DNA of 8,638 nt from a virus (taxonomy: Duplodnaviria > Heunggongvirae > Uroviricota > Caudoviricetes): IMG/VR virus record IMGVR_UViG_2675903606_000008, positions 1 through 8,638 of that record. The stretch is one strand, 5' to 3'. The notes beneath the pieces are model-generated. The model worked only from the letters and a program-made list of their open reading frames with translations. It did no database searches and was not told the DNA's origin. Of this stretch, positions 1,793 to 6,894 are shown in pieces. The position numbers and the translations under genes were made by a program. Numbering within the stretch: position 1 is the first letter of the stretch; every line of letters starts with the position of its first letter.

Positions 1793-1835
1793 AAAAAGGG
1801 CGGCAGAGCAGCCACGGAGTAAAACTGATACCGCC
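1793..1835 (-). terminator. Intrinsic terminator-like hairpin forming the DicF 3' end (GGCGG...CCGCC stem plus U-tract)
   Basis: On the minus strand GGCGG (plus 1831..1835) can pair with CCGCC (plus 1799..1803), with additional internal pairing and a following TTTTT (plus 1793..1797). dicB downstream must be expressed by readthrough or processing. Confidence 0.5.
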
Positions 1836-1850
1836 AAACGTCACCAGAAA
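1798..1850 (-). ncRNA. dicF: DicF small regulatory RNA (53 nt; known antisense regulator of ftsZ and other mRNAs)
   Basis: The reverse complement of 1798..1850 is TTTCTGGTGACGTTTGGCGGTATCAGTTTTACTCCGTGGCTGCTCTGCCGCCC, essentially identical to the E. coli DicF sequence as I remember it, followed by a T5 tract. It lies in the expected position between the upstream genes and dicB. Confidence 0.85.
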
Positions 1851-3366: not shown

Positions 3367-3774
3367 TTATCTTTTGTTTGTTCGTTGACGGGCTTTTAAT
3401 AACTCTTCAAAGAGTTTGTTGAAATTTTTTACTCGGGCGCGCATCTCGGTGAGCTGAGCATCCTGTTCTGATTCAGGCAATGCATTAAAAAGCTCAAGGA
3501 GCTCATGTTCTTTGGGGGATAGAGCAACTGGCTCCTCAATAGGTGGTGATGGTTGCTTGTCTTCATCGCCAAATAGAATCCATGTTGGCGAGCACTGCAG
3601 TACTTTGCTGAGGGCAAAAAGATTCTTTCCTGTAGGTTCGCTATCATCCCGCTCCCATTGTGAAACCGATACGTGAGAAATTTTCAGGACTTTAGCAAGA
3701 GACCTTTGGGTGTATTTGAGGTTTTTTCGGCGATATCTAATGCGTTCGCCAATGGTTAAATTTTTTGTATCCAT
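3367..3774 (-). CDS. dicA: DicA, CI-like HTH (XRE-family) repressor of the dicB operon (135 aa)
   Basis: Track ORF 3367..3774 minus, MDTKNLTIGERIRYRRKNLKYTQRSLAKVLKISHVSVSQWERDDSEPTGKNLFALSKVLQCSPTWILFGDEDKQ...NFNKLFEELLKARQRTNKR. This is near-identical over its full length to E. coli DicA as I recall it. It is divergently arranged with dicC. Confidence 0.9.
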   Translation of the reverse strand: MDTKNLTIGERIRYRRKNLKYTQRSLAKVLKISHVSVSQWERDDSEPTGKNLFALSKVLQCSPTWILFGDEDKQPSPPIEEPVALSPKEHELLELFNALPESEQDAQLTEMRARVKNFNKLFEELLKARQRTNKR

Positions 3775-3857: not shown

Positions 3858-4088
3858 ATGCTTAAAACTGACGCACTTTTGTATTTCGGTTCAAAAACAA
3901 AACTTGCACAAGCTGCTGGTATTCGTTTGGCTTCGCTTTATAGCTGGAAAGGGGAGCTAGTACCTGAAGGTCGCGCGATGCGCCTGCAAGAGGCATCCGG
4001 CGGGGAACTTCAGTACGACCCCAAAGTTTATGACGAATATCGTAAGGCAAAGCGGGCGGGGCGGTTGAACAATGAAAATCACCCCTGA
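3858..4088 (+). CDS. dicC: DicC, Cro-like small regulator (76 aa)
   Basis: Track ORF 3858..4088 plus, MLKTDALLYFGSKTKLAQAAGIRLASLYSWKGELVPEGRAMRLQEASGGELQYDPKVYDEYRKAKRAGRLNNENHP. This is near-identical to E. coli DicC as I recall it and is divergent from dicA. Confidence 0.9.
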   Translation: MLKTDALLYFGSKTKLAQAAGIRLASLYSWKGELVPEGRAMRLQEASGGELQYDPKVYDEYRKAKRAGRLNNENHP

Positions 4089-4623
4089 ACAGGTTTGTGA
4101 GGCTCTGGATGCCTGGGTGTGCCGACCAGGAATGACACAGGAACAGGCGACGATATTAATCACGGAAGCATTCTGGGCTCTGAAAGAACGCCCGAACATC
4201 GATGTTCAACGCATCACGTTTAATGATGGCGAGGTTGATCAACGGGCACTGGGCGTTAACCGGGTGAAGATATTCGAACGCTGGAAAGCTATCGACACCA
4301 GGGATAAGCGGAAAAAATTCACGGCGCTGATTCCGGCAATTATGGAGGCTATCCGAATTAGTGATTTCAGGTTGTATCGTGAGATCAGTGATGGAAAAAG
4401 CATTACGTACATGATCGCCGGATTAAACAAAGAATATGGCGATGTGGTGGAGTCCGGGCTGCTTTTTGCGGATCCATCTGTTGTGGAACGTGAGACTGAC
4501 GAGCTTATAGAAAAAGCTATTGCTTTCAAGCATGCGTATCGTCAGCAGTATCAATATTACTTTGCAGATAAACAAATATCTGCCAGGGGTTCGTATGAGT
4601 ATCGATGCACTACGATGGGCTAA
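4072..4623 (+). CDS. YdaT-family protein (CII-like regulator, formerly annotated as toxin YdaT), 183 aa
   Basis: Track ORF 4072..4623. Its N-terminal half (MKITPEQVCEALDAWVCRPG...KIFERWKAIDTRDKRKKFTALIPAIMEAI) resembles Rac-prophage YdaT (MKIKHEHIRMAMNAWAHPDG...KIFRWVEKD...LLPAIEKAM). It occupies the cII position between the Cro-like and replication genes. Start overlaps the dicC 3' end by 17 nt. Confidence 0.7.
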   Translation: MKITPEQVCEALDAWVCRPGMTQEQATILITEAFWALKERPNIDVQRITFNDGEVDQRALGVNRVKIFERWKAIDTRDKRKKFTALIPAIMEAIRISDFRLYREISDGKSITYMIAGLNKEYGDVVESGLLFADPSVVERETDELIEKAIAFKHAYRQQYQYYFADKQISARGSYEYRCTTMG

Positions 4624-5635
4624 AAAGGTGAAAACCGGCAGTTCATCCAGTAAGTCTGTATTGACCTGGCTTGCTGATATGTGCGGTGCCGATTTGTGTG
4701 CATACCCGTCTGTATCTGCACTGGCAGAAGTAACGGAACTGAACAAAAAGACTGTGCAGGACAGCTTACGACACCTGATGGAGATTGGGTTAATTGTTGA
4801 TACCGGTGAGAGAAAAGGCAGAACAAAGCAAATTGTGGTGTACCGACTTATCGGTGTAGAAGAAAGTGTTGCCGAGCCTGAATACACCCAAAAACGGGTG
4901 TCTTTAAAGGTGGGTAAAATTGGTGCTGTTAATAAAAACAGTACCGAAAACGGTTATGTTTCAGCACAAAAGAGCCCCAAAAACGGAACTCTTTGTTGCA
5001 TGGAAAATAACCAAAGACACCCAAATTTTCCATCAAAGACACCCAAAAACGGATCACGGAACCCAAAGGAACCCAAAGATCTAAACCCCACACATAACGC
5101 ACGCGAGAGTGCTCCGATCAGTGAGCAGGAAGTTTTGTCGTTACAGGCAGCCCCCCATGTATTCCTGGATGGCCTGAGCGAACCCATCGGAAAATTTCCG
5201 ATGACCGATAGCTGGTATCCGTCACGGGATTTTCGACGACGGGCTGCGTTGTGGGGGATGGCTTTGCCGGAGACAGAATTTACACCTGCTGAACTTACCG
5301 CATTCCGGGACTACTGGGCAGCGGAGGGGAAAGTGTTTACGCAGATTCAGTGGGAGCAGAAATTCGCCCGTCACGTAAATCACGTCAGGGCGCAGGTTAA
5401 ACCAGTCAGCAAGGGGGTAAACCATGCAGCAGCACCAGGTGGCACCGCATCACGGGCAGTTCAGGAAATTCGGGCAGCACGTGAGCAGTGGGAACGTGAA
5501 AACGGATTTATCAGCGACGGAAACGGCCTGGAAGCTGTGGGAGCTCATGGGGGAGGTTTATTCGAACCGCTGGACCCAGAAGAACGGGGCCGCACCTTCG
5601 AAGCTCTGGATTGCACAGATTGGCGCGATGACTGA
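4595..5635 (+). CDS. Phage replication initiation protein (O-like functional analogue) with N-terminal winged-helix/HTH domain
   Basis: Track ORF 4520..5635. I prefer the ATG at 4595 (MSIDALRWAKKVKTG..., AGGGG 6 nt upstream). The N-terminus is a typical HTH replication-protein domain (SVLTWLADMCGADLCAYPSVSALAEVTELNKKTVQDSLRHLMEIGLI). A low-complexity, Pro/Lys/Asn-rich middle region is encoded by direct DNA repeats. The gene lies immediately upstream of a lambda P-like gene. Confidence 0.7.
   Translation: MSIDALRWAKKVKTGSSSSKSVLTWLADMCGADLCAYPSVSALAEVTELNKKTVQDSLRHLMEIGLIVDTGERKGRTKQIVVYRLIGVEESVAEPEYTQKRVSLKVGKIGAVNKNSTENGYVSAQKSPKNGTLCCMENNQRHPNFPSKTPKNGSRNPKEPKDLNPTHNARESAPISEQEVLSLQAAPHVFLDGLSEPIGKFPMTDSWYPSRDFRRRAALWGMALPETEFTPAELTAFRDYWAAEGKVFTQIQWEQKFARHVNHVRAQVKPVSKGVNHAAAPGGTASRAVQEIRAAREQWERENGFISDGNGLEAVGAHGGGLFEPLDPEERGRTFEALDCTDWRDD
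5011..5078. repeat. Iteron-like direct repeats inside the initiator gene (candidate replication origin)
   Basis: CAAAGACACCCAAA occurs at 5012..5025 and 5034..5047. Tandem GGAACCCAAAG / GAACCCAAAG occurs at 5058..5068 and 5069..5078. The ACCCAAA core therefore appears four times within about 60 bp, with AAAACGG motifs at 4947, 4979 and 5046 in an AT-richer flank. Confidence 0.4.
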
Positions 5636-6089
5636 GCAGCAAATCCGGCAGGTCTGCCGCCAGTGCATGGACCGCTGCCGGGCGGGTGAAACATGGCCTC
5701 CGGACCTGGCTGAGTTTGTGGCGCTGATTTCGGAAAGCGGGGCCAATCCATTTGGCCTGACGGTGGATGCTGTGATGGAGGAGTATCGCCGCTGGCGTAA
5801 TGAGTCCTGGCGATATAACGGAAGCGACAAATATCCGTGGCCTCAGCCTGTGCTGTATCACATTTGCCTCGAGATGCGTTCAAAGGGGATTGAACGCCAG
5901 ATGACCGAAGGGGAATTAAAACGGCTTGCAGAACGGCAGCTGACGAAATGGGCAAAGCATGTTAGTAACGGCCTGAGCGTTCCGCCAGTACGGCGACAAC
6001 TGGCGGCACCAAAACGCCCGTTGGGACCAACGCCAATTGAGTTGCTGAAACAGGAGTATGAACGCCGGAAAGCGGCTGGTTTTGTCTGA
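5424..6089 (+). CDS. Replication protein P-like (DnaB helicase loader), 221 aa
   Basis: Track ORF 5424..6089. Residues 45-221 align by eye to lambda P, for example MTEQQIRQVCRQCM with ITTMEQVNAGMRVA, TWPPDLAEFVALI with PFLPSPGQFVAWC, and YPWPQPVLYHICLEMRS...ELKRLAERQLTKW with YPWKSNAHYWLVTNLYQ...ELRRKAADELVHM. A strong SD (AAGGGGG) lies 7 nt upstream of the ATG at 5424. Confidence 0.75.
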   Translation: MQQHQVAPHHGQFRKFGQHVSSGNVKTDLSATETAWKLWELMGEVYSNRWTQKNGAAPSKLWIAQIGAMTEQQIRQVCRQCMDRCRAGETWPPDLAEFVALISESGANPFGLTVDAVMEEYRRWRNESWRYNGSDKYPWPQPVLYHICLEMRSKGIERQMTEGELKRLAERQLTKWAKHVSNGLSVPPVRRQLAAPKRPLGPTPIELLKQEYERRKAAGFV

Positions 6090-6123
6090 TTTGAGAAGTA
6101 ATTTTTATCCGGAGGAAATTTTA

Positions 6124-6894
6124 ATGGGAACCGTATTGCATGCACTGAAAGCGATGGGTAAAGCCAATTCTGTTGAACTGGCGGCGCGGCTTGATATCAG
6201 CCGTGAAGAAGTTCTCAACGAACTGTGGGAACTCAAAAAAAATGGCGTTGTTGATAAAACGGGTCACACCTGGTTTCTGGCTGTCGAAGGTGAATCCGGG
6301 GTAACCGAAGGGCAGGCACTACAACCTGAAGCGCCGGATGTGGTAACCGAAGAGGTCGCTCCAAAAGTTAGCGCTGACATGATGATTGAGTTTATCGCTC
6401 AGGAGGGGGCTAAAACCTGTGAAGAAATAGCGGGTAAGTTCGGTGTCAGTACTCGCAAGGTTGCTTCCACGCTGGCGGTGGTAACCGCAACGGGGCGGCT
6501 GGCACGCGTTAATCAGAACGGTAGATTTCGTTACTGCATGCCGGGCGATAATTTACCAGCAGAGCCGAAAGCCGCGCTGGTAACGGAAAATGATGGTAAG
6601 GCCTTTCCTCAGCCAGCAGGTGCTGCGTTACCAGTCCGGGAAGCCGCAACACAGGAAGAAATTAAAACAGAAACTGTGGCGGACATTGTGCAGCCGTTGC
6701 CATCGTTTACCGAAACGCAAGCAGATGAGCTGATTTTTCCGTCCCTGCGCAGGGCAAACCTGGCGCTGCGCAGGGCGAAAAGTGATGTTCAGAAGTGGGA
6801 GCGAGTCTGCGCCGCGCTGCGGGAGCTGAACAAGCACCGGGATATTGTTCGACAGATTACTGATTCTTCCCGCCGTGTTGTATCGGAAAAGTGA
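6124..6894 (+). CDS. Prophage protein with two winged-helix/HTH-like segments (DUF1627-like, assignment from memory), 257 aa
   Basis: Track ORF 6058..6894. Preferred start is the ATG at 6124 (MGTVLHALKAMGK), with GGAGGA 7 nt upstream and after the P-like stop at 6089. Two segments resemble MarR-like winged helices: SVELAARLDISREEVLNELWELKKNGVV and CEEIAGKFGVSTRKVASTLAVVTATGRL. Confidence 0.6.
   Translation: MGTVLHALKAMGKANSVELAARLDISREEVLNELWELKKNGVVDKTGHTWFLAVEGESGVTEGQALQPEAPDVVTEEVAPKVSADMMIEFIAQEGAKTCEEIAGKFGVSTRKVASTLAVVTATGRLARVNQNGRFRYCMPGDNLPAEPKAALVTENDGKAFPQPAGAALPVREAATQEEIKTETVADIVQPLPSFTETQADELIFPSLRRANLALRRAKSDVQKWERVCAALRELNKHRDIVRQITDSSRRVVSEK

What the first reader, a model, noticed from the sequence alone, without database searches (positions are those of the whole stretch)
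5424..5635. Unusually long out-of-frame overlap (about 210 nt) between the O-like and P-like replication genes
Seen in sequence: the initiator ORF continues to a stop at 5633..5635, while the P-like ORF starts at an ATG at 5424 with a strong AAGGGGG ribosome-binding site. The first clear lambda P-like homology begins around codon 45 (about 5555), so most of the overlap encodes P-like N-terminal sequence I cannot align. Both frames look protein-like in the overlap. Established knowledge: lambda O and P overlap by only a few nucleotides. Inference: either a genuine dual-coding segment, or the true P-like start is a downstream codon (ATG 5547 or GTG 5496, both with weak SDs), or one frame is extended by a frameshift artefact.
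Basis: partly seen in the sequence, partly recalled or inferred. Interest (0 to 1): 0.45.

Follow-up and report, generated by a model that had tools for sequence, protein, structure and literature searches.

The report
Real 212-base initiator/helicase-loader gene overlap
In this prophage the end of the replication initiator gene and the start of the helicase-loader gene really do share about 212 bases in two reading frames, an arrangement kept from E. coli prophages to Vibrio phages and cut short by standard genome annotation.

Summary
The O-like ORF (HTH + DnaT domain; ATG 4595) has no stop before TGA 5633-5635. The lambda-P-family ORF is open from ATG 5424, behind AAGGGGG.

The long overlap is most likely genuine:
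- The P frame is under purifying selection from about 5496 to 5627 (omega 0.25).
- ATG 5424 is the only start conserved in all lineages. It is invariant in 18/18 diverged enterobacterial sequences, even at an O-synonymous site, and always has a strong Shine-Dalgarno.
- In more distant homologues the RefSeq start (ATG 5628) is Leu.
- Vibrio phages K249 and D62 (about 28% P identity) show the same 212-nt overlap and have no downstream start.
- The O frame is kept free of stops (0/21 at-risk columns against 33/46 in the control).

Constraint is partitioned. Bases 5424-5495 are shaped by O (a predicted helix) where P is predicted disordered. Bases 5496-5632 are shaped by P (domain II helices) where the O tail is predicted disordered.

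It is not an assembly artefact: 73 of 75 IMG/VR loci show it, in 32 sequence variants. RefSeq and GenBank starts (153, 181 or 140 aa) truncate P.

Verdict: a new, well-supported example of a known kind, a long phage gene overlap. Translation has not been shown experimentally.

The parts
4595..5635 (+). O-like replication initiator gene (346 aa): winged HTH, disordered linker, DnaT domain, C-terminal tail
   Evidence: ORF. Pfam PF17948 DnaT at residues 201-267, 60.4 bits; HTH_36 is below its cut-off. RefSeq annotates the same 1041-nt CDS. AF2 domain map.
5424..6089 (+). Lambda-P-family helicase-loader gene, full-length form (221 aa) in the +1 frame relative to O
   Evidence: ORF. PF06992, 59.6 bits. 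221-223 aa forms are predicted in many genomes. The AF2 model's best PDB matches are lambda P chains over 192-217 aligned columns.
5411..5417 (+). Shine-Dalgarno (AAGGGGG) for the P start, built from O-frame Lys/Gly codons
   Evidence: Anti-SD duplex -11.8 kcal/mol, against a window-background 5th percentile of -7.2. The energy is -7.1 to -11.8 at the equivalent site in all 17 enterobacterial loci. G5414 is invariant and G5415 is kept in 17/18.
5424..5426 (+). Proposed P start codon
   Evidence: ATG is invariant in 18/18 diverged sequences while positions 5418-5423 all vary. T5425 is a synonymous third position of the O codon, which is CAT, AAT or TAT and never NAC. An ATG lies at the same place in Vibrio phages K249 and D62.
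5424..5635 (+). The 212-nt out-of-frame overlap (O residues 277-346 and stop; P residues 1-70 and the first two bases of codon 71)
5424..5495 (+). O-dominated part of the overlap. It encodes most of the O tail helix (residues 287-302 = nt 5453-5500) and the predicted disordered N-terminus of P (residues 1-24)
   Evidence: Codon-phase diversity follows the O frame. omega(O) 0.50 [0.31-0.72]; omega(P) 0.91 [0.53-1.63]. AF2: P residues 1-27 have pLDDT below 50; O has a helix at 287-302.
5496..5632 (+). P-dominated part of the overlap. It encodes the first P domain II helices (residues 29-67 = nt 5508-5624) and the predicted disordered end of the O tail (residues 306-346)
   Evidence: Codon-phase diversity follows the P frame. 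omega(P) 0.25 [0.14-0.37]; omega(O) 0.75 [0.49-1.18]. AF2: P helices at pLDDT about 80; O residues 306-346 have pLDDT below 50. The O frame avoids stops: 0/10 at-risk columns.
5633..5635 (+). O stop codon TGA, lying across P codons Thr70/Glu71
   Evidence: Invariant in 18/18. T5633 is a P third-codon position that never varies. The stop is at the same aligned position in Vibrio phages K249 and D62.
5628..5630 (+). Internal ATG (Met69 of P) used as the start by RefSeq/PGAP, Rac-SA53 and pPE4 (153-aa product, 8-nt overlap); probably not the main start
   Evidence: Annotations. No SD, -3.1 kcal/mol. The residue is Leu in more distant homologues and in Vibrio phages. This start would remove about half of domain II.
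5547..5549 (+). Internal ATG (Met42 of P), used as the start by 177-181 aa predictions, which include RefSeq 'replication protein P' entries
   Evidence: Weak SD, mean -5.9 kcal/mol. The conserved TAWxLW motif and P-frame selection lie upstream of it.

Best explanation
This is a genuine, anciently conserved, co-directional overlap in the +1 frame. The last 70 codons of the DnaT-domain replication initiator (the O analogue) and the first 70 codons of the lambda-P-family helicase loader are read from the same 212 bases.

P is translated from ATG 5424, using a strong Shine-Dalgarno sequence embedded in the Gly-rich linker codons of O. O is read through to TGA 5633-5635.

The two proteins share the DNA by dividing the constraint between them.
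- The first 70 bases or so carry a conserved O-tail helix ([ST]xRAVQxIRAAR...). There P has only a disordered N-terminal segment, comparable with the lambda P domain I 'lasso'.
- The last 135 bases or so carry the first three helices of P domain II (TAWxLWxxMGEIYSNRWTxKNGxxPSxLWIAQIG). There the O tail is disordered and free to vary, but it is kept open and ends at a conserved stop.

Inferred, not shown:
- The embedded start makes P synthesis independent of termination-reinitiation at the O stop.
- The overlap welds the O tail, a candidate loader-docking element, to its cognate P gene. They then travel as one module when the N-terminal origin-binding domains of O are swapped between phages.
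For: Shown by the sequence:
- The O frame has no stop before 5633, and the P frame is open from 5421.

Selection:
- Controls behave as they should. O-only region: omega(O) 0.30, sham P frame 0.97. P-only region: omega(P) 0.21, sham O frame 1.25.
- Within the overlap, omega(P) is 0.39 (5496-5546) and 0.16 (5547-5627), with no bootstrap reaching 1. omega(O) is 0.50 in 5424-5495.
- Codon-phase diversity switches from the O pattern to the P pattern inside the overlap.

Start site:
- ATG 5424 is invariant in 18/18, including an O-synonymous position, amid variable flanks.
- Its SD is -7.1 to -11.8 kcal/mol in all 17 enterobacterial loci, against -5.9 for ATG 5547 and -3.1 for ATG 5628.
- L097 and L104 have no other start upstream of the conserved motif.

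Deep conservation:
- Vibrio phages K249 and D62 have an identical 212-nt overlap and no start codon between overlap positions 140 and -82.
- Other Vibrio phages overlap by 191-200 nt.
- Enterobacterial homologues at 49-55% identity overlap by 203-224 nt, and by 113 nt in L193.
- Met69 is Leu in more distant homologues.

Structure:
- AF2 gives P residues 1-27 as disordered and helices at 29-67 with pLDDT about 80.
- The best PDB matches are full-length lambda P chains.
- Lambda P has a disordered domain I (1-29) and a domain II at 30-119 (PMC12661323).
- In O, residues 287-302 form a helix and 306-346 are disordered.

The O frame is maintained:
- The probability that it stays open is 0.002-0.06 with P held fixed.
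- No T occurs at 21 at-risk, T-permissive columns, against 33 of 46 in the control.

Not an artefact:
- 73 of 75 IMG/VR loci have the arrangement, in 32 variants.

Module:
- O proteins with HTH_36+DnaT, DUF1376+DnaT, DUF1376 alone or HTH_36 alone all carry the tail next to a P gene.
Against: - There is no experimental evidence of translation from ATG 5424.
- The first 24 P codons show no amino-acid-level selection (omega 0.91). The case for 5424 over a start near 5496 therefore rests on conservation of the start codon and SD, not on the encoded peptide.
- The P frame stays open over the first 25 codons by chance with probability 0.96.
- No stretch shows strong selection in both frames at once, so 'dual coding' in the strict sense is weak.
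- omega(O) is about 0.9 in 5547-5627, so the distal O tail may have little sequence-specific function.
- In L193 and Vaitephage the O tail stops earlier (overlap 113 nt or less), and phiV10 has only a 4-nt overlap. The long overlap is therefore not obligatory for the family.
- The SD is weak in some Vibrio phages (-3.5 to -6.6).
- The sequences are related, so the bootstrap and column counts overstate independence.
- Met42 is nearly invariant, so a minor 180-aa isoform cannot be excluded.
Confidence: 0.82

Rival explanations
1. The true P start is an internal codon, so the real overlap is short. The candidates are ATG 5628 (8-nt ATGACTGA overlap with termination-reinitiation coupling, as RefSeq annotates) and ATG 5547 (89-nt overlap, as the 177-181 aa predictions have it, RefSeq 'replication protein P' entries among them). 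On this reading the upstream P-frame ORF is an untranslated by-product of O coding.
For: - RefSeq/PGAP, Rac-SA53 and pPE4 annotate the 5628 equivalent. Many database entries are 177-181 aa or 153 aa.
- ATGACTGA resembles classical coupled junctions such as lambda O/P.
- With O held fixed, the P frame stays open by chance with probability 0.10-0.32.
- Large co-directional overlaps are nearly always mis-annotated 5' extensions (PMC2478687).
- Met42 is nearly invariant.
Against: - P-frame omega is 0.16 in 5547-5627 and 0.39 in 5496-5546, whereas the sham frame in the control gives 0.97.
- Codon-phase diversity in 5547-5627 matches the P-only region.
- Met69 is Leu in homologues at 49-55% identity.
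- Vibrio phages K249 and D62 have no start codon there, and their next ATG removes the WPPDL core.
- ATG 5628 has no SD (-3.1) and ATG 5547 a weak one.
- A 153-aa product would lack helices 29-67, which are modelled with the rest of domain II (lambda P domains).
- The conserved TAWxLW motif lies upstream of Met42.
Confidence: 0.12
2. Both a full-length P (from 5424) and one or more N-terminally shortened isoforms (from 5547 and/or 5628) are made. The shorter ones would be coupled to O termination and would lack the O-proximal part, as in other phage genes with nested in-frame starts.
For: - ATG 5547 and ATG 5628 are both conserved across the closer Enterobacteriaceae.
- The O stop (T5633) is invariant and sits 3 nt after ATG 5628.
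- Some loci have moderate SD-like sequences before the 5547 equivalent, from -9.3 to -9.8.
Against: - Met69 is not conserved beyond the closer relatives.
- Met42 conservation is equally explained by its place in a helix.
- There are no expression data.
- The O stop is also conserved in Vibrio phages that have no ATG next to it.
Confidence: 0.05
3. The overlap is an artefact. A sequencing or assembly indel, or a recent pseudogenising frameshift, has extended one frame in this particular window.
For: - G5 runs at 5413 and 5549 could be indel-prone.
- One relative (Leclercia, L105) does carry a frameshift in this region.
Against: - The arrangement is identical in 73 of 75 IMG/VR loci with 32 distinct sequences.
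- 1255 of 5426 complete E. coli genomes hold at least 80% of bases 5250-5800. Frames were checked only in the three fetched (L004, L006, L007), and they keep both frames.
- 13 of 14 species-level genomes have it, as do Vibrio phages.
- All indels in the overlap are multiples of 3.
Confidence: 0.01

Closest known systems
Phage lambda O-P junction (initiator followed by helicase loader)
   Same: The gene order and roles are the same: an origin-binding initiator followed by a PF06992 loader. The P protein is colinear with lambda P: a disordered N-terminus, domain II, domain III and a C-terminal segment. Iteron-like repeats lie inside the initiator gene, as in lambda.
   Different: Lambda O and P overlap by 4 nt; here the overlap is 212 nt out of frame. 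The initiator is not a lambda O homologue but an HTH + DnaT-domain protein with an extra C-terminal tail.
phiV10 / epsilon15-type DnaT-domain initiator + P pair
   Same: It has the same two protein families (HTH_36+DnaT and PF06992). The phiV10 P protein aligns with window P from residue 18.
   Different: The phiV10 initiator ends 4 nt into P and lacks the tail. P's N-terminal region is therefore single-coding there. This suggests the O tail over P domain II is a secondary extension (overprinting).
Established long out-of-frame overlaps in phages (for example lambda Rz/Rz1, phiX174 genes) and overprinted viral genes with disordered products; from my own knowledge, not tested here
   Same: Two proteins are read from one DNA stretch in different frames. 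One partner is disordered where the other is structured.
   Different: Here two adjacent genes overlap end to start, rather than one gene lying inside another. The partners are an initiator and the helicase loader that follows it; by analogy with lambda O and P they would be expected to interact, which was not tested. Constraint is split along the overlap.
Large co-directional overlaps in prokaryotic annotation (Palleja et al. 2008, PMC2478687)
   Same: It is a co-directional overlap above 60 bp that looks like a 5' extension of the downstream gene.
   Different: That survey found none of 715 such overlaps to be real, and the longest real one was 56 bp. This one passes the orthologue-length and selection tests that those failed.
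VdhL helicase loaders derived from Vibrio phages (PMC11087808)
   Same: They are Vibrio-phage loaders remotely similar to PF06992 and encoded next to O-like genes. The Vibrio phage P-like genes found here sit in that context.
   Different: Identity of the K249/D62 proteins with VdhL was not tested. That paper does not mention any overlap (0 occurrences of the word).

Membership tests
Lambda P family helicase loader (Pfam PF06992) | Significant match to the family profile | tested here: met
   59.6 bits against a cut-off of 26, residues 56-188 on profile positions 28-161 of 162. phmmer to lambda P PDB chains, E 5e-4. hhalign probability 91.7%.
Lambda P family helicase loader (Pfam PF06992) | Four-part architecture colinear with lambda P (disordered domain I, helical domains II and III, C-terminal lasso) | tested here: inconclusive
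   AF2 gives residues 1-27 as disordered and helices at 29-104 and 114-181. The top Foldseek hits are lambda P chains over 192-217 columns at probability 1.00, but TM is only 0.34-0.38 because the domains are flexibly linked. Sequence alignment to lambda P itself covers only residues 72-201.
Lambda P family helicase loader (Pfam PF06992) | Binds and loads the host DnaB helicase | not testable with these tools
   This needs biochemistry or genetics.
DnaT-domain phage replication initiator (O analogue) | DnaT ssDNA-binding domain plus an N-terminal winged-helix DNA-binding domain | tested here: met
   PF17948, 60.4 bits against a cut-off of 25. HTH_36 scores 20.9 bits, below its cut-off of 25. 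PDB DnaT matches at E 5e-19. AF2 gives a winged HTH at residues 1-87.
Genuine overlapping (dual-coding) gene pair | Both frames open, with conserved ends, across diverged relatives | tested here: met
   13 of 14 species-level loci, the Vibrio phages and the 49-55% identity homologues. O-frame stop avoidance: 0/21 at-risk columns against 33/46 in the control.
Genuine overlapping (dual-coding) gene pair | Purifying selection on each frame within the overlap | tested here: met
   O: omega 0.50 in 5424-5495. P: omega 0.25 in 5496-5627. The sham frames in the controls are near 1.
Genuine overlapping (dual-coding) gene pair | Simultaneous selection on both frames at the same nucleotides | tested here: inconclusive
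   In each sub-region only one frame is significantly below 1. omega(O) is 0.70 [0.46-1.13] in 5496-5546. 'Synonymous' rates in the overlap are only 20-30% below those of the single-coding flanks.
Genuine overlapping (dual-coding) gene pair | Conserved start codon and ribosome-binding site for the downstream gene inside the upstream gene | tested here: met
   ATG is invariant in 18/18, including an O-synonymous site. The SD is -7.1 to -11.8 kcal/mol in all 17 enterobacterial loci.
Genuine overlapping (dual-coding) gene pair | Direct evidence that both products are made | not testable with these tools
   No Ribo-seq or proteomics data are available here.
Short coupled junction of the lambda O/P type (ATGA-like, termination-reinitiation) | The downstream start lies within a few nt of the upstream stop and is the conserved start of the family | tested here: not met
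   ATGACTGA exists at 5628-5635. But Met69 is Leu in more distant homologues and in Vibrio phages, there is no SD, and selected P-frame coding lies upstream.
Programmed ribosomal frameshift site | Slippery heptamer (X XXY YYZ) in frame, with a downstream structure | tested here: not met
   No heptamer in either frame in 5380-5640. No conserved RNA structure in 5375-5475, around the P start; the rest of the overlap was not folded.

The most novel reading that the evidence does not exclude
The overlap may be more than compaction. It could be a device that physically welds the two halves of a protein-protein interface. On this reading the conserved O-tail helix (nt 5453-5500) is the docking element for its cognate loader or for the loader-DnaB complex. 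Because it is written over the 5' end of the loader gene, recombination that swaps origin-binding domains (HTH_36 for DUF1376) can never separate an initiator tail from its matching P. That would explain why the overlap length has stayed at 191-224 nt from most of the Vibrio phages examined to E. coli prophages.
Probability: 0.3. Interest if true: 0.65.

Novelty: new member of a known kind. Interest (0 to 1): 0.5.

Why it matters
1. It is a well-supported example of a long (212-nt) co-directional out-of-frame overlap in a bacterial or prophage genome. A systematic survey found no real case of this class above 60 bp (PMC2478687).

2. It shows how two proteins can share DNA: each is structured where the other is disordered.

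3. It corrects a widespread annotation error. RefSeq names 153-aa or 181-aa 'replication protein P' products in over a thousand E. coli genomes and in other Enterobacteriaceae. Those products lack part of domain II, which matters for anyone who models or expresses these loaders.

4. It suggests a testable link between gene overlap and modular exchange of replication modules in lambdoid phages.

Tried and rejected
- **Assembly or frameshift artefact.** Rejected on the comparative data.
- **RNA structure hiding the P ribosome-binding site, to be opened by O translation.** Rejected. The fold of 5375-5475 is weaker than its shuffles (z = +1.0), and the consensus structure of 10 orthologues has essentially no energy and no covariation.
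- **Programmed frameshift giving an O-P fusion.** Rejected. There is no slippery heptamer.
- **P-frame openness as evidence.** Discarded, because with O held fixed it is expected by chance at 0.10-0.32.
- **Searches that added little.**
  - The first IMG/VR scan returned only near-identical E. coli-type loci. It served as a population check but gave no diversity.
  - The second scan, led by the Vibrio protein, again returned E. coli-type loci.
  - A genome scan with a 5-sequence alignment failed for lack of a conserved stretch. It worked with 3 sequences.
  - A protein search with the 85-aa O tail alone found only E. coli fragments.
  - hhalign of the P alignment against lambda P did not extend into the N-terminal 80 residues. 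Colinearity there rests on the fold comparison and on phiV10-type homologues.
- **Literature.** Searches found no description of this overlap. The library is incomplete, so this is absence of evidence only.
Full report
**1. What is in the window**

The window is the immunity and replication region of a Rac/PPompW-type lambdoid prophage of E. coli. The closest phage records are 96.4% identical. Complete E. coli O157:H7 and O103 genomes match bases 5250-5800 at 99.8%.

The genes, in order:
- a DicA-like repressor (3367-3774, minus strand)
- a Cro/DicC-like gene (3858-4088)
- a YdaT-family gene (4072-4623)
- an initiator with a winged HTH and a DnaT domain (ATG 4595 to TGA 5633-5635)
- a lambda-P-family gene
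- a DUF1627 gene

**2. The observation**

It is correct as written.
- The O-like frame has no stop before 5633.
- The +1 frame is open from 5421 and begins with ATG 5424, which lies 6 nt after AAGGGGG (5411-5417).
- The shared stretch is 5424-5635, 212 nt.
- GTG 5496 and ATG 5547 are in frame.
Yet that is the start chosen by RefSeq/PGAP, Rac-SA53 and pPE4, giving a 462-nt CDS.
- LC567818 and Citrobacter phage Chris1 annotate a start further downstream, after the O stop.
- Database predictions of this protein come in four lengths: 221-223, 177-181, 153 and 140 aa. The start is plainly unsettled in public annotation.
- Lambda O and P overlap by 4 nt.

**3. The extent of the overlap depends only on the P start**

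The O frame simply has no earlier stop, so O must be read to 5635 whenever it is translated. I collected diverged junctions:
- 14 species-level genomes: E. albertii, Citrobacter, Enterobacter, Klebsiella, Phytobacter, Pluralibacter, Kluyvera, Salmonella and Leclercia, with P 64-93% identical
- E. coli and phage records
- four homologues at 49-55% identity
- six Vibrio phages

What they show:
- In 13 of the 14 genomes the O frame ends at the same aligned stop. An ATG sits 212 or 215 nt upstream of the end of the O stop codon. The Leclercia copy is frameshifted.
- In the 49-55% identity homologues the overlap is 221, 203, 224 and 113 nt.
- In Vibrio phages K249 and D62, whose P is about 28% identical, the overlap is again exactly 212 nt. 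There is no ATG, GTG or TTG in the P frame from 140 nt before the O stop to 82 nt after it (88 nt in D62). The start their own records annotate is the ATG 121 nt after the stop, which removes the conserved WPPDL core.
- Three further Vibrio phages overlap by 191, 200 and 197 nt. In Vaitephage the overlap is 113 nt or less.
- phiV10 has a homologous P N-terminus (aligned from residue 18), but its initiator ends 4 nt into P and has no tail.

**4. Selection**

I aligned 18 distinct enterobacterial sequences. The only indels in the overlap are multiples of 3.

Mean pairwise diversity by codon phase switches inside the overlap.

| Region | O pos 1 (= P pos 3) | O pos 2 (= P pos 1) | O pos 3 (= P pos 2) | Pattern |
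|---|---|---|---|---|
| 5424-5495 | 0.25 | 0.23 | 0.40 | O frame, as in the O-only DnaT region |
| 5547-5627 | 0.37 | 0.096 | 0.079 | P frame |
| 5636-5800 (P only) | 0.48 | 0.15 | 0.12 | P frame |

I then ran an OLGenie-style count. It holds the effect of each change in one frame fixed and asks about the other frame.

| Region | omega(O) | omega(P) |
|---|---|---|
| Control, O only | 0.30 | 0.97 (sham frame) |
| Control, P only | 1.25 (sham frame) | 0.21 |
| 5424-5495 | 0.50 [0.31-0.72] | 0.91 [0.53-1.63] |
| 5496-5546 | 0.70 [0.46-1.13] | 0.39 [0.23-0.59] |
| 5547-5627 | 0.94 [0.32-2.44] | 0.16 [0.05-0.32] |

The controls behave as they should. The P frame is therefore translated well upstream of both 5628 and 5547. 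The constraint is partitioned rather than superimposed.

**5. The start codon**

- Upstream of the conserved TAWxLW motif (from about 5511), the only start codon present in every lineage is the 5424 equivalent. L097 and L104 have no other.
- ATG 5424-5426 is invariant in 18/18, while all six preceding positions vary.
- T5425 is the synonymous third position of an O codon that is CAT, AAT or TAT and never NAC. The O amino acid changes, but the P start does not.
- The anti-SD pairing energy is -7.1 to -11.8 kcal/mol at this site in all 17 enterobacterial loci. For the window it is -11.8, against a window-background 5th percentile of -7.2. The means are -5.9 before ATG 5547 and -3.1 before ATG 5628.
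- Met69 (ATG 5628) is Leu in most homologues at 49-55% identity and in the Vibrio phages.

**6. The O frame is actively maintained**

- With the P protein held fixed and synonymous codons drawn at random, the O frame stays open over the overlap with probability 0.002-0.06.
- Some P third positions would create an O-frame stop if they were T, and a T there would be synonymous in P. At such positions no T occurs in 21 columns (175 cells) of the overlap. In the P-only control, 33 of 46 columns (141 of 483 cells) have a T. Each control sequence carries 5-10 O-frame stops per 148 codons.
- The O stop itself (T5633, a P third position) is invariant.

**7. Structure**

- The AF2 model of the 221-aa P (24-sequence alignment) has residues 1-27 disordered (pLDDT below 50). 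Helices 29-46, 48-54 and 60-67 follow at pLDDT about 80 and continue into helices 71-86 and 95-104.
- Its best PDB matches are lambda P chains from the DnaB-lambda P complexes, aligned over 192-217 columns. TM-scores are low because the domains are flexibly linked.
- The lambda P structure paper describes a domain I (1-29, likely intrinsically disordered, an 'N-terminal lasso'), domain II (about 30-119), domain III (about 120-192) and domain IV (PMC12661323).
- A 153-aa product would therefore lack about half of domain II.
- The AF2 model of O has a winged HTH (1-87), a disordered linker (88-195), the DnaT domain (196-267), a helix at 287-302 and a disordered end at 306-346.
- Mapped to DNA, the O helix (5453-5500) lies where P is disordered (5424-5504). 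The P helices (5508-5624) lie where O is disordered (5510-5632). This matches the omega partition.

**8. The O tail as a module**

- Initiators with different N-terminal halves all carry the tail, and all sit next to a P gene. The halves seen are HTH_36+DnaT, DUF1376+DnaT, DUF1376 alone and HTH_36 alone.
- The tail motif is [ST]xRAVQxIRAAR, followed in most by ...EERG...LD..DW.
- E. coli proteins 85-89% identical over the C-terminal 54% of O have unrelated N-termini.
- In L193 the tail stops just after the helix. That fits the helix being the functional part.
- That the tail docks the loader is inference by analogy with the lambda O C-terminal domain. It was not tested.

**9. Rejected alternatives**

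- Artefact: 73 of 75 IMG/VR loci have the 221-aa ORF and the 212-nt overlap, in 32 distinct sequences.
- RNA-structure-mediated coupling: there is no stable or conserved structure around the RBS.
- Frameshifting: there is no slippery heptamer.

**10. Comparison with what is known, and novelty**

- The proteins are ordinary members of known families.
- The overlap is a new, well-supported member of the known class of phage gene overlaps.
- It is unusual for a co-directional overlap in a bacterial chromosome. A survey of 715 such overlaps above 60 bp found none real, and the longest real one was 56 bp (PMC2478687).
- I found no paper that describes it. That is absence of evidence in an incomplete library.

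**11. Limits**

- No expression data exist.
- The first 24 P codons are not constrained as protein. The choice of 5424 over a nearby start rests on the start codon, the SD and the comparative data.
- The sequences are related, so the statistics overstate independence.
- I put about 0.95 on an overlap of at least about 125 nt, and about 0.82 on the full 212 nt.

Noticed in passing
window 1798-1849 (- strand): A full-length match to the DicF antisense sRNA (Rfam RF00039, 75 bits against a gathering score of 48). It places the window in a dicB-operon type prophage region.
   Followed up: no
window 4880-5077: Iteron-like direct repeats (4 copies of about 19 nt, AAAGAsmCCCAAAAACGGA, plus CAAAGACACCCAAA x3 and an inverted pair) lie inside the part of the O gene that encodes its disordered linker. 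This is a plausible replication origin, as in lambda, where the ori iterons lie inside O.
   Followed up: partly
window 6058-6126: The longest-ORF start of the DUF1627 gene (ATG 6058) would overlap the end of P by 32 nt. RefSeq starts the gene at the equivalent of ATG 6124, which follows a GGAGG. That second apparent overlap is probably a longest-ORF artefact, unlike the O/P one.
   Followed up: partly
window 4072-4623 / 4595 and 3858-4088 / 4072: There are two more co-directional overlaps in the same operon: YdaT-family/O by 29 nt, which RefSeq annotates, and Cro-like/YdaT-family by 17 nt.
   Followed up: no
L105 (Leclercia adecarboxylata LR590464.1), about 2100-2190: The P frame runs into the O frame after ...WQVMGG. 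This is a deletion or frameshift near the G-run equivalent to window 5549, and it leaves a disrupted P gene.
   Followed up: no
L190, L192 (loci of P0078, P0062): Where the gene caller took the full-length P, it called no initiator gene at all, although an O-frame ORF of 387-396 codons is open there. Automatic annotation seems to resolve the overlap by dropping or truncating one partner.
   Followed up: partly
L010/L011 (Vibrio phages K249, D62), 1501-1893: Their records annotate the P-like gene as a 327-nt 'hypothetical protein' that starts after the conserved WPPDL motif. The full ORF (1501-2160) is 219 aa and has the same 212-nt overlap. These may be relatives of the VdhL loaders of PMC11087808, which was not tested.
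   Followed up: partly
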